Shown here: positions 21,355-22,609 of the stretch, piece by piece | Layout of the letters: the number at the start of each line of letters is the position of its first letter | Numbering within the stretch: the stretch's first letter is position 1 | Origin: a virus | DNA: 64,000 nt | Virus record (IMG/VR): IMGVR_UViG_3300048855_000163 | Coordinates: 39-64,038 of that record | Strand: one strand, 5' to 3' | Made by a program: the position numbers and the translations under genes | The notes under the pieces: generated by a model | What the model saw: only the letters and a program-made list of their open reading frames with translations | Told to the model about the DNA's origin: nothing | Databases searched by the model: none

Positions 21355-21441
21355 GGAGGGTTGGCCGAACGGTAAGGCGATGCCGTGCTAAGGCATTGAG
21401 TCCGAAAGGATGAGCGGGTTCGACTCCTGCACCCTCCGCCA
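21355..21441 (+). tRNA. tRNA-Ser(GCT)
   Basis: Acceptor GGAGGGT/ACCCTCC, arm ATGCC-GTGCTAA-GGCAT, long variable arm, TTCGA loop, G73, encoded CCA. Confidence 0.93.
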
Positions 21442-21447
21442 GACAAC

Positions 21448-21533
21448 GGAGGGTCCCGCTCAATGGTGGGCAACCGGTCTCGAAAACCGGGGTGACCGCG
21501 AGGTCAGGGGTTCGATTCCTCGGCCCTCCGCCA
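21448..21533 (+). tRNA. tRNA-Ser(CGA) with 8/4 acceptor/T-stem fold
   Basis: Acceptor GGAGGGTC/GGCCCTCC (8 bp), arm CCGGT-CTCGAAA-ACCGG, variable stem TGACC-GCGA-GGTCA, 4-bp T-stem GGGG/CCTC, GCCA end. Confidence 0.88.
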
Positions 21534-21543
21534 AGTTTAGTTC

Positions 21544-22063
21544 AGGCCTTCGGCTGCGGACGAACCGCATAAGCCCGATATACGGCAAGGACTGGGGTTC
21601 GTCCCGGTCGAGGCCTACGAGTTCAGTGCGGGCCGAGTGATCGGCCTTATGGGGATGCCGCCCGCTGGCAGCTGAACGGCCCTCGAAACGACCCCTTTAC
21701 GGGATCTCTCTCACTGGTAGGGACTTGTCCCGGCCCGCACTGATAGAGTTCTGCAACAAGCGGCGTGGATGGGAGACACGCACGGCCTGATGGTACGGTC
21801 CGAACGCGCGGGCAGCTGGCGGCTCTCATTCAGTAACCCGCTGGACCCCGAGAACGCTGAACCCGGAGCAGGTATCAAGCCCTGCCTTGTTGCAGATAGA
21901 ATTCGGCGGGGAGCGCCGCGAGCGGCAGAATCCGGTCACCATGCCGGATGGCAAGCCCGAAGCCCCACCGATGGGTAGCAACAGCCCGCAAGGGGCCATC
22001 GGGAACAGCGGCAACCTTTTATCCCGCCCTAGTGGCGAACCCCCAGGGCTCCGGCTCTGGGGG
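21544..22063 (+). ncRNA. Structured non-coding RNA array, domains A-E
   Basis: Closing helices 21544-50/21610-16, 21623-35/21731-43, 21750-60/21886-96, 21905-11/22022-28; UCCG hairpin 22040-22063; no credible ORF. Confidence 0.75.
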
Positions 22064-22084
22064 ATACGAGTTCGGAGAGTGGCC

Positions 22085-22345
22085 ATGATGGGCCATCGCG
22101 AGCCCATGAAGGGCGCTCACGAGTTCGACTGTCTCCGCCGCTGGCGCAAGAACATCTGCGTTGCCCGGTCGGGTGAGGCGAGGTTTGCGAAGCAGACCTT
22201 CAACCGCCGCGTTCGTCGCAATGTGCGCAGTGAGATCGCAGCCGAGCTGATCATCCTTGAAGATTGGGGCGATCTGGCCCCGCACATAGAATGGACTTGG
22301 CACGACGTGATGTACCAGGAAGGCGACGGCTGGGACGGCGATTAG
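22085..22345 (+). CDS. Small conserved phage protein embedded in the RNA array
   Basis: GGAGAG RBS; MMGHREPMKGAHEFDCLRRWRK...AKQTFNRRVRR. Confidence 0.65.
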   Translation: MMGHREPMKGAHEFDCLRRWRKNICVARSGEARFAKQTFNRRVRRNVRSEIAAELIILEDWGDLAPHIEWTWHDVMYQEGDGWDGD

Positions 22346-22348
22346 AGT

Positions 22349-22609
22349 TCAGCACTGAGGGATCCGCTACCGGGGACAGCCAATCTCCAAGCGGCCTTGG
22401 CAAGTTGGGTAACGGGGCGGCAGAAATCCGTGTGGGCCGCCGGCCAGCAATGGCGCCGATGACGGTCAGTGCTGATTCAGTTCGGTGCGGCGGCGTGGTA
22501 AGCAGACACGCCATGGACGGTATGCATACGTTCGGAACCGCCCACCCGCGACAGGCCCAAAAAGGCCAAGCCTGTAAGCCGGAGTAGCGCCCGGCCCGCA
22601 CCGACACCA
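22349..22609 (+). ncRNA. Structured non-coding RNA, domains G and F (F is tRNA-like)
   Basis: Perfect helices 22349-58/22466-75 and 22482-90/22596-604. Confidence 0.72.

What the first reader, a model, noticed from the sequence alone, without database searches (positions are those of the whole stretch)
21355..22609. tRNA-linked array of closed RNA domains joined by a repeated 6-nt linker: candidate undescribed phage ncRNA system
Seen: downstream of a promoter and two tRNA-Ser genes lie consecutive ~70-150-nt domains, each closed by a long-range helix: A (7 bp), B 21623-35/21731-43 (13 perfect bp), C 21750-60/21886-96 (11), D 21905-11/22022-28, G 22349-58/22466-75 (10), F 22482-90/22596-604 (9). 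They are preceded by ACGAGT, TAGAGT, TAGAAT, TAGAGT and TTCAGT, each followed by TC. Interiors carry GCAA, UCCG and CUUG tetraloops, and one small ORF is embedded. Established: large structured phage RNAs beside tRNAs exist (GOLLD, ROOL), and tRNA operons are cut by RNase P/E. Inference: either one large multidomain RNA or a polycistron processed into several small RNAs made at the onset of late transcription, possibly decoys for host tRNA-targeting defences. I cannot assign it to a known family.
Basis: partly seen in the sequence, partly recalled or inferred. Interest (0 to 1): 0.85.

Follow-up and report, generated by a model that had tools for sequence, protein, structure and literature searches.

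The report
Phage operon of tRNA-shaped small RNAs
Behind two serine tRNA genes this prophage carries a row of folded RNA modules, two of which belong to a large family of tRNA-shaped phage RNAs that is absent from Rfam: a near-invariant scaffold around a hypervariable insert, function still unknown.

Summary
Window 21534-22609 contains consecutive domains closed by perfect long-range helices of 13, 11, 10 and 9 bp, joined by 6-nt linkers ending AGT/AAT and followed by TC. That is far more than shuffles give.

It is a real RNA array. Related phages (L117, L124, L131, L063) carry arrays with the same junction but different module sets.

Modules F (22482-22604) and C (21750-21896) belong to a family with at least 130 distinct members in viral and metagenome contigs. 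The shared architecture is:
- an acceptor-like P1 of at least 7 bp;
- a 2-nt joint, CG;
- hairpin P2 with loop GAAAGCAGA;
- a hypervariable insert of 35-198 nt;
- an A, then a 5-bp hairpin P3 with loop AGUAGCGC, stacked directly on P1.

Covariation is strong: 98.7% of cells paired, and 12 of 17 pairs show compensatory changes. No Rfam 15 family matches.

Elsewhere the family mostly occurs as a stand-alone gene, sometimes beside co-oriented tRNA genes.

Best reading: a tRNA/tRNA-like small-RNA operon cut at its linkers by host tRNA-processing nucleases. Processing, expression and function (tRNA mimic, or scaffold for a payload) remain inferred. A single giant RNA is unlikely.

The same first-stage reading of this genome also flagged C and F as twin tRNA-like modules (note e1-5347700); the scan holds nothing like it from other DNA.

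The parts
21161..21189 (+). Promoter-like element: CTTGAC, 17 nt, GTACTA, just after the stop codon of the 223-aa gene
   Evidence: Read. A CTTGAC/TTGAC box follows the stop codon of this gene's homologues in L117, L130, L132, L133, L134 and L135. The strict sigma-70 scan found nothing, so this rests on conservation and is an inference.
21221..21300 (+). Conserved leader element: helix CUGAUGGA/UCCAUCAG (21225-32 with 21270-77) enclosing small hairpins, then GUGCAAACC
   Evidence: A 20-nt block (CCACCTGATGGATTGCAGCG) and most of the rest are identical in L117 2898-2970. The 3' arm there reads TCCATTAG, which turns a G-C pair into G-U on this strand.
21355..21441 (+). tRNA-Ser (GCU)
   Evidence: ARAGORN; Rfam tRNA model, 50.3 bits.
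21448..21533 (+). tRNA-Ser (CGA), atypical cloverleaf
   Evidence: ARAGORN. The best Rfam model is tRNA-Sec at 40.9 bits, below its cut-off of 47.
21544..21614 (+). Module A: long irregular hairpin closed by AGGCCU/AGGCCU. Part of it resembles the variable/T-arm region of the preceding tRNA-Ser.
   Evidence: MFE -43.3 kcal/mol, z -4.98. Direct repeat D3, 21495-21514 against 21582-21601, 80% identical.
21623..21743 (+). Module B: 13-bp closing helix UCAGUGCGGGCCG/CGGCCCGCACUGA, with a CUUG hairpin abutting the 3' strand
   Evidence: The same P1 sequence closes the last module of the arrays in L117, L124 and L131. Part of the interior is shared with L124 2890-2965 only.
21750..21896 (+). Module C, a divergent member of the tRNA-like family. 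P1 21750-60/21886-96; joint CG; P2 21763-67/21777-81 with loop GAUGGGAGA; insert; A21867; P3 21868-72/21881-85 with loop UAUCAAGC.
   Evidence: Model R1 gives 11.8 bits, E 0.027, in a 7-kb search. Its counterparts with the same P1 score 41.2 bits (L124 3208-3418) and 39.4 bits (L117 3069-3249). P2 covaries between them (GCGUG/CACGC against GCGCU/AGCGC). The loop UAUCAAGC recurs in L204 1806-1987.
21905..22028 (+). Module D: multi-helix domain closed by 7 bp, GGCGGGG/UCCCGCC (one G-U)
   Evidence: z -1.93. No homologue found.
22040..22063 (+). GC-rich hairpin without a U-tract, between module D and the ORF
   Evidence: Inverted repeat I24. Not called as a terminator.
22085..22345 (+). Embedded 86-aa ORF. 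Its RBS (GGAGAG) directly follows an ACGAGU|UC junction, and its stop codon TAG is part of the next linker.
   Evidence: Coding GC pattern 0.63/0.44/0.77. Orphan in 5.8 billion proteins. One weak PHROG hit.
22349..22475 (+). Module G: 10-bp closing helix UCAGCACUGA/UCAGUGCUGA, with GCAA and AUGA hairpins next to the 3' strand
   Evidence: No homologue found.
22482..22604 (+). Module F, a canonical member of the tRNA-like family. P1 22482-90/22596-604; joint CG 22491-92; P2 22493-97/22507-11 with loop GUAAGCAGA; 66-nt insert; P3 22578-82/22591-95 with loop AGUAGCGC.
   Evidence: Model R1 gives 93.4 bits, E 6e-21. Aligned with 39 other members in A4.
21617..22481 (+). Span holding the linkers WNAGU|UC: 21617-22, 21744-49, 21897-902, 22066-71, 22343-48, 22476-81
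   Evidence: The same junction (TAGAGT|TC, TTTAGT|TC, CAGAGT|TC, TTCAGT|TC, AACAGT|TC) separates modules in L117, L124, L131, L063 and L184.
22631..22900 (+). First gene after the array (89 aa, PHROG 419, unknown function)
   Evidence: PHROG 419, E 8.7e-30. In L063 a two-module array lies just upstream of this gene's homologue.

Best explanation
This is a phage non-coding RNA operon. A promoter-like element behind a conserved 223-aa gene is followed by a conserved leader, two tRNA-Ser genes and six folded RNA modules (A, B, C, D, G, F), with one small protein gene inserted among them.

Each module is closed by a helix of its own 5' and 3' ends, as a tRNA is closed by its acceptor stem.

Modules C and F belong to a large family of tRNA-shaped phage RNAs that has no Rfam model. 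Its parts are:
- an acceptor-like P1 of at least 7 bp;
- a 2-nt joint, CG;
- a D-arm-like hairpin P2 with the near-invariant loop GAAAGCAGA;
- a hypervariable insert where the anticodon arm would be;
- a 5-bp T-arm-like hairpin P3 with the near-invariant loop AGUAGCGM, stacked directly on P1.

Inferred, not shown: the transcript is cut into separate stable small RNAs in the A/U-richer linkers (WNAGU|UC) by the host nucleases that mature tRNA operons. RNase P would cut at the 5' edge of P1, and RNase E in AG|UU. The released RNAs would act in trans as mimics of the tRNA 'top half', binding a conserved host factor while carrying a phage-specific insert.

The target and the benefit to the phage are unknown. 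Counter-defence or interference with translation are possibilities only.
For: Shown:
- The helices and linkers exceed chance.
- Homologous arrays with the same junction lie in the same position (after the 223-aa gene homologue, before the packaging genes) in L117 and L124; L131 has one after the same gene (its short contig ends before any packaging gene), and L063 has a two-module array before the PHROG-419 homologue.
- A covariance model built from 40 members scores F at 93.4 bits and the counterparts of C at 39-41 bits.
- Covariation: 99.7% of cells paired in A4. In 75 metagenome members chosen by the 5' motif alone, 98.7% are paired, 12 of 17 pairs show changes on both sides, and slid controls give 27-44%. 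The P3 loop stayed near-invariant in that set although it was not selected for.
- G-U pairs occur on this strand only, which points to RNA of this polarity.
- Geometry is tRNA-like: P1 of at least 7 bp, a 2-nt joint, and a 5-bp P3 abutting P1. In C and in L204's second copy the loops change together to a GG-containing loop and UAUCAAGC, which resembles the D-loop GG and T-loop UUCAA of tRNA.
- Where a tRNA gene lies within 300 nt (10 of 136 members) it is always on the same strand; in L204 it starts 6 nt after the RNA match, about 16 nt after P1.
- The modules are autonomous: many stand-alone members have -35/-10-like boxes ending 5-9 nt before P1 and a hairpin downstream. They share no neighbouring protein.
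- In L063 a two-module array ends in an intrinsic terminator.
Against: - No transcript data exist. The only run holding the window is its source soil metagenome, which is DNA. Contigs laid on another member cannot show RNA ends.
- Processing at the linkers is inferred from sequence alone. The base before P1 is not consistently U across the family, and no CCA follows P1.
- Modules A, B, D and G have no wider family, so their status rests on this lineage only.
- Folding z-scores of single modules are modest.
- The inserts show no shared motif, no unusual stability, and no excess complementarity to the phage's own genome. Nothing yet indicates what they do.
- The strict promoter scan found no sigma-70 site upstream of the array.
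Confidence: 0.6

Rival explanations
1. One large multidomain RNA of about 1.1 kb, comparable to GOLLD or ROOL, which often lie beside phage tRNA genes. The domains would pack together and act as one particle.
For: The domains are contiguous with fixed 6-nt spacers and follow tRNA genes. No terminator separates them.
Against: - No GOLLD, ROOL or other large-RNA model matches, even at E up to 10.
- A gene with a coding signature interrupts the array.
- Related phages have different numbers and kinds of modules.
- The C/F type occurs alone in more than 100 unrelated contexts with its own promoter-like boxes.
Confidence: 0.07
2. Cis-acting punctuation. The tRNA-like modules would serve mainly as processing and stabilising signals for the neighbouring mRNAs (the 86-aa ORF and the PHROG-419 gene), like the tRNA-like 't-elements' that define mRNA ends in plant mitochondria (PMC1920247). 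The excised modules would be by-products.
For: An ACGAGU|UC junction is followed directly by the RBS of the 86-aa ORF. The ORF's stop codon lies in the next linker. Module F ends 26 nt before the next start codon. In L063 the array precedes the homologue of the same gene.
Against: - Family members lie in every orientation relative to their neighbours.
- They have no conserved neighbouring gene.
- In L063 the array is followed by a terminator.
- Near-invariant loop sequences across unrelated phages are more than a processing signal needs.
Confidence: 0.15
3. DNA-level elements. The inverted repeats and conserved junctions would be recombination or single-stranded-DNA sites (attC-like cassettes or module-exchange boundaries), not RNA.
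For: Module content differs between relatives while the junction stays the same. That would suit junction-mediated shuffling.
Against: - The flanking bases of P1 are complementary rather than direct repeats, and they covary with four pair types.
- G-U pairs exist on one strand only.
- The junction does not fit the attC core GTTRRRY.
- The stand-alone members have promoter-like boxes at a fixed distance from P1.
Confidence: 0.05
4. Decayed tRNA genes or chance structure in GC-rich intergenic DNA, with no function.
For: Module A resembles part of the neighbouring tRNA-Ser. L117's first module has a T-arm-like GGUUCGAGUCC and a weak tRNA-Sec hit. Folding z-scores are modest. A, B, D and G lack a wider family.
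Against: - For C and F, more than 130 members keep loops and pairing through compensatory changes.
- Four helices of at least 9 bp, chained with identical spacing, are far from the shuffle expectation.
- The arrays are conserved in position in relatives whose flanking protein is only 23-53% identical.
Confidence: 0.05

Closest known systems
Small stable RNAs of the phage T4 tRNA gene cluster (species 1 and 2 RNAs) (from my own recollection of the 1970s literature; not checked here)
   Same: Phage-encoded stable RNAs that are not tRNAs, lie inside a tRNA operon, are closed by pairing of their ends and are matured with the tRNAs. Their function is still unknown.
   Different: The present family has its own near-invariant loops and a hypervariable insert, occurs mostly as a stand-alone gene, and in this lineage forms arrays with a conserved linker.
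Bacterial and phage Y RNAs of the YrlA type (tRNA-like domain on a Ro60-binding stem) (from my own knowledge)
   Same: A non-coding RNA of about 100-200 nt, closed by a stem of its 5' and 3' ends and mimicking parts of a tRNA. Some members here carry a T-arm-like GGUUCRAnnCC.
   Different: The provirus has no Ro60/TROVE gene. No Y RNA model matched. The conserved loops GAAAGCAGA and AGUAGCGC are not a Ro-binding helix, and most members lack a true T-loop.
tmRNA
   Same: A tRNA-like acceptor/T-arm frame enclosing a long non-tRNA insert.
   Different: ARAGORN calls no tmRNA in the window or in 9 member loci. There is no encoded CCA, and no open-frame bias ending at the UAG of the P3 loop. The only tmRNA-type hit is 13.9 bits and falls on the tRNA-Ser genes.
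GOLLD and ROOL large phage RNAs
   Same: Structured phage non-coding RNAs often found beside tRNA genes; function unknown.
   Different: Those are single large RNAs of 500-800 nt with their own Rfam models, and none matched. Here the unit is a module of 110-250 nt that also occurs alone.
Plant mitochondrial t-elements and the tRNA punctuation of polycistronic transcripts (PMC1920247)
   Same: tRNA-like structures between genes that tRNA-processing enzymes can use to define RNA ends.
   Different: t-elements are degenerate tRNA copies with no conserved family-specific loops. The family here is conserved across unrelated phages and is usually not next to a co-oriented gene.
Phage tRNAs that replace host tRNAs cut by defence nucleases (PMC11555353)
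   Same: tRNA-related phage genes carried in accessory regions. In L117 and L124 the array sits next to an Acb2/Tad1-type sponge gene.
   Different: Those are true, decodable tRNAs. Modules A-F are not tRNAs, and no defence link was tested.

Membership tests
   F: P1 22482-90/22596-604, CG 22491-92. C: P1 21750-60/21886-96, CG 21761-62. P1 covaries across the family.
   F has GUAAGCAGA, one change. C has the same stem and loop length but a variant loop, GAUGGGAGA. Its counterparts in L117 and L124 have the canonical loop.
   F is canonical. C has A21867, the covarying stem GCAGG/CCUGC and the variant loop UAUCAAGC, which is also seen in L204 1806-1987.
   F: 93.4 bits, E 6e-21. C alone is marginal (11.8 bits, E 0.027), so its membership rests on the counterparts at 39-41 bits. 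B, D, G and A do not match on the + strand.
tRNA (RF00005) | Cloverleaf with an anticodon arm, recognised by ARAGORN or the Rfam model | tested here: not met
   Only 21355-21441 and 21448-21533 are called. Modules A-F give no tRNA hit even at E up to 10.
GOLLD / ROOL | Match to the family covariance model | tested here: not met
   No match at the gathering score or at E up to 10.
tmRNA | tRNA-Ala-like domain with CCA end, plus a tag reading frame | tested here: not met
   ARAGORN calls none. No frame bias upstream of the P3-loop UAG: 23.8, 26.4 and 23.6 open codons in the three frames.
Y RNA / YrlA | Ro60 (TROVE) partner gene and a Ro-binding stem | tested here: not met
   No TROVE domain in the 64.9-kb provirus. 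No Y RNA model hit. The host genome could not be searched.
Integron cassette array (attC sites) | Core sites RYYYAAC / GTTRRRY at cassette borders, and an IntI integrase | tested here: not met
   The junctions read AGT|TCNG, so the fourth base after GTT is C rather than R. Flanking bases covary as RNA pairs. IntI was not searched for.
Type III toxin-antitoxin RNA (ToxI-like repeats) | Tandem near-identical repeats of about 36 nt next to an endoribonuclease toxin gene | tested here: not met
   The modules are 70-150 nt and differ in sequence (mean column identity 53% in a forced alignment). No tandem repeat family was found.

The most novel reading that the evidence does not exclude
The C/F family is a widespread class of phage 'scaffold' RNAs. 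A tRNA-shaped frame would secure maturation, stability and binding to a conserved host factor, while the hypervariable insert would be a phage-specific payload: a guide, decoy or sponge directed at host defence or translation. Arrays such as this one would be multi-payload operons exchanged between phages at a conserved junction.
Probability: 0.25. Interest if true: 0.9.

Novelty: new variant of a known kind. Interest (0 to 1): 0.72.

Why it matters
Phage tRNA genes and tRNA mimics are now known to matter in the contest with host defences, yet few phage non-coding RNAs have a defined fold, and fewer a function.

This window led to a family with more than 130 distinct members from soil, freshwater, marine and sludge samples. 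It has clear covariation, a tRNA-like frame and an insert that differs in every phage. No Rfam model matches it, and its signature sequences appear nowhere in the searchable literature.

The family is easy to test: the units are short, the ends are defined and the loops are invariant. If the scaffold-plus-payload idea holds, it would be a new way for phages to deliver small RNAs. If the RNAs are tRNA-end mimics, they point to a conserved host factor that many unrelated phages need to engage.

The arrays, with their conserved linker, also offer a natural system for studying how non-tRNA RNAs use the tRNA maturation machinery.

Tried and rejected
- **Sequence homologues of the region.** Direct DNA similarity of the region to 50,697 phage records hit only the tRNA part. 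blastn against the first 114 loci found nothing.
- **The embedded ORF as an anchor.** It is an orphan.
- **C-type pattern in metagenome contigs.** No hits.
- **Module B.** Its interior motif gave only chance hits in viral contigs, apart from L124.
- **Conserved neighbouring protein of the family.** None at blastp 1e-8; the largest cluster covers 5 loci.
- **Peptide coding inside the insert, in frame with the P3-loop UAG (tmRNA-like).** No frame bias.
- **Antisense targets in the phage's own genome for the inserts of B, C, D, G and F.** The longest complementarities (11-13 nt) equal shuffles.
- **A shared motif or unusual stability in 130 inserts.** None; mean z is -0.66.
- **A housekeeping host RNA.** Rejected: only 5 of 301 Hyphomicrobiales species genomes hold the 5' motif.
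- **Expression evidence.** The only run holding the window is its source DNA. Contigs of a marine library laid on member L186 show the RNA and two other variants with the same ends but different inserts. They cannot show transcription or ends.
- **False positive.** L253, with five 5'-motif hits, is an unrelated AT-rich repeat locus.
- **A second 'array' at 6641-6890.** This is chance pairing inside a coding region.
- **Function of flanking proteins.** The 223-aa protein and the PHROG-419 protein could not be assigned.
- **Fremin et al. 2023 catalogue (PMC10690425).** It lists 8,495 unnamed candidate structured RNAs from IMG/VR. I could not check whether it already lists this family, because no supplement is held.
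Full report
**Setting.** The window is an IMG/VR provirus record of 64.9 kb. Its source is a soil metagenome. Relatives of a neighbouring gene lie in Hyphomicrobiales genomes. The region sits between early/replication-side genes and the packaging genes: TerS at 25456-25926 and TerL at 26036-27604.

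**Observation.** ARAGORN finds tRNA-Ser(GCU) at 21355-21441 and tRNA-Ser(CGA) at 21448-21533.
- Helix D is 7 bp with one G-U.
- The linkers ACGAGT, TAGAGT, TAGAAT, TAGAGT and TTCAGT, each followed by TC, are present. A sixth, ACGAGT|TC, precedes the RBS of the embedded ORF.
- In the whole window there are 43 closed helices of at least 9 bp; shuffles give about 35. Four lie in this kilobase.
- Both chains found in the window are here, each with a 6-nt spacer. Shuffles give 0.2 chains per window.
- The ORF 22085-22345 has a coding GC pattern and the modules do not.
- Single-module folding energies are only modestly below shuffles.

**Known families.** Rfam 15 gives only the tRNAs, both at gathering scores over the whole window and at E up to 10 over 21100-22800.

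**Relatives with the same array.** The embedded ORF is an orphan. The 223-aa protein upstream (20476-21147) has a few homologues.
- In L117, an assembled contig from a public sequencing run, the homologue is followed by:
  - a TTGAC box;
  - a leader with a 20-nt block identical to window 21221-21240;
  - three modules separated by TAGAGT|TC, TTTAGT|TC and TTAGAGT|TC.
- The second L117 module has the same closing helix as window C (UCUGCAACAAG). Its first hairpin carries compensatory changes (GCGCU/AGCGC against GCGUG/CACGC).
- L124, L131 and L063 carry further arrays with the same junction but other module sets. In L124 the array is headed by a tRNA-Met. In L063 it ends in an intrinsic terminator.
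- So the array is conserved in position and in junction, but modular in content.

**A large family behind modules F and C.** The 3' end of F (GTAGCGCCC.GGCCCGCA) hit 74 IMG/VR contigs.
- About 60 of these share the 5' end TGCGG-CG-GCGTG-GAAAGCAGA-CACGC and the 3' end A-GCCGG-AGTAGCGC-CCGGC-CCGCA around an unalignable middle.
- The two bases outside TGCGG/CCGCA are complementary in every sequence, with four pair types each.
- A covariance model, R1, scores F at 93.4 bits. Window C alone scores 11.8 bits, but its counterparts in L124 and L117 score 41.2 and 39.4 bits.
- A second, independent sample was chosen by the 5' motif only. Of the 80 loci returned, 75 matches were confirmed by the model.
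- In that set 98.7% of cells pair, 12 of 17 pairs have changes on both sides, and slid controls give 27-44%.
- The P3 stem varies freely (GCCAC/GUGGC, GCAGG/CCUGC, GUCUC/GAGAC and others), while its loop stays AGUAGCGC or AGUAGCGA.
- There are 130 distinct inserts of 35-198 nt.
- Twelve member loci scanned against Rfam at gathering scores gave no family for this RNA. They showed only adjacent tRNAs and, in L148, a Proteo-phage-1 RNA next to it. A looser scan gave only a weak tRNA hit on an embedded T-arm.
- The signature strings occur in no paper of the searchable library.

**Architecture.** P1 (at least 7 bp), a 2-nt joint, a 5-bp hairpin with a 9-nt loop, an insert, one A, and a 5-bp hairpin abutting the 3' strand of P1. 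This is the layout of a tRNA, with the insert in place of the anticodon and variable arms.
- P1 plus P3 give the 12-bp stack that RNase P and other tRNA-end enzymes recognise. That recognition is established knowledge; applying it here is inference.
- In window C and in L204's second copy both loops change together, to a GG-containing loop and UAUCAAGC. These resemble the D-loop GG and the T-loop UUCAA. That hints at an elbow-like loop-loop contact, but rests on two cases.
- Six of the 62 viral and genome-contig members tested (alignment A5) carry a true T-arm-like GGUUCRAnnCC inside the insert.

**How the family lives elsewhere.**
- No neighbouring protein is shared.
- Orientation to neighbours is mixed; my gene calls here are crude.
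- Many members have -35/-10-like boxes ending 5-9 nt before P1, and a hairpin after P1. Most are therefore stand-alone small genes.
- Ten of 136 have a tRNA gene within 300 nt, always on the same strand.
- Several phages have two copies: L145, L204, L206, L220 and L268.
- Only 5 of 301 Hyphomicrobiales species genomes hold the 5' motif, so it is not a host housekeeping RNA.

**What could not be shown.**
- No RNA run holds the window. Contigs laid on another member are uninformative about ends.
- The inserts show no coding bias, no shared motif, no special stability and no excess antisense match to the phage itself.
- Modules A, B, D and G have no wider family. B shares its P1 with the last modules of L117, L124 and L131, and part of its interior with L124.

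**Interpretation.** The best reading is a tRNA/tRNA-like small-RNA operon.
- The closing helices act as acceptor-like stems.
- The A/U-richer linkers are the likely cutting sites. AG|UU fits the RNase E preference for a U two bases after the cut, which I recall from the Salmonella work; the 5' edge of P1 fits RNase P. The products would be stable trans-acting RNAs.
- A single giant RNA is unlikely because of the modularity, the interrupting gene and the stand-alone members.
- A purely cis 'punctuation' role is possible for this array, but it does not explain invariant loops in unrelated phages.
- DNA-level explanations are disfavoured by complementary (not direct) covarying flanks and by strand-specific G-U pairs.
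The only contextual hint is that in L117 and L124 the next gene encodes an Acb2/Tad1-type sponge fold, so this slot may hold accessory or counter-defence genes.

**Novelty.** tRNA-like phage small RNAs are a known kind: the T4 stable RNAs, YrlA and tmRNA. This family, its scaffold-plus-hypervariable-insert design and the linker-joined arrays are not in Rfam 15, and I found them in no paper. I could not check whether the unnamed candidate list of PMC10690425 contains it.

Noticed in passing
window 21448-21533: tRNA-Ser(CGA) scores better against the Rfam tRNA-Sec model (40.9 bits, below the cut-off of 47) than against the general tRNA model. This fits an unusual acceptor/T-stem geometry, as another first-stage note proposes (8/4). 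L134, a Beijerinckiaceae genome, also has a tRNA-Ser(CGA) right after the homologue of the 223-aa gene.
   Followed up: partly
window 20476-21195; L117, L130, L132, L133, L134, L135: The 223-aa protein belongs to a phage protein family of unknown function (Atlas neighbours include DUF6456). In all relatives read, it is followed directly by a CTTGAC/TTGAC box, in three of them with GCAAATC about 11 nt later. It may control the promoter that drives the RNA array.
   Followed up: partly
L117 3451-3849; L124 about 3640-4045: The gene right after the RNA array in these two relatives carries the Acb2/Tad1 hairpin domain (PF24729), the fold of the sponges for anti-CBASS and anti-Thoeris signalling nucleotides. 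The slot behind the array may be an accessory or counter-defence locus.
   Followed up: no
L148 4030-4108: A Proteo-phage-1 RNA (RF03044, 56 bits) lies 12 nt downstream of a family member. A weak hit to the same model lies near the member in L182.
   Followed up: no
L186, L210, L196, L182, L147, L178: A subgroup of the family has a T-arm-like hairpin (GGUUCRAnnCC) near the end of the insert. In a partly overlapping set of members (L186, L187, L196, L207, L153) P1 reads GGUGCGG/CCGCACC and is followed by A, and four members (L153, L151, L196, L207) share a conserved element just upstream (…CCCCGGUU.C.GCCU.AGCAACGA…). They may form a larger composite RNA.
   Followed up: partly
L063 1095-1300 (= L158): A compact two-module array (ACGAGT|TCAGCCAGC…GCTGGCTGA|TTTAGT|F-like module) followed by an intrinsic terminator. 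It lies just upstream of a homologue of the PHROG-419 gene that follows the array in the window.
   Followed up: partly
L117 2986-3066: The first module of the L117 array is 81 nt, with a T-arm-like GGUUCGAGUCC and a weak tRNA-Sec hit (16.9 bits), but ARAGORN does not call it. It is either a decayed tRNA or a tRNA mimic.
   Followed up: no
L253 3100-4117: Five matches to the 5' motif turned out to be an unrelated repeat (GC-rich segments alternating with long AT-rich low-complexity stretches), probably eukaryotic. It is a false positive of the pattern scan.
   Followed up: yes
window 21544-21614: In module A the two segments that another first-stage note reads as kissing loops (ACGAA and UUCGU) pair as part of one extended hairpin in the minimum-energy fold (-43.3 kcal/mol, z -5). 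The two readings cannot be told apart without homologues.
   Followed up: partly
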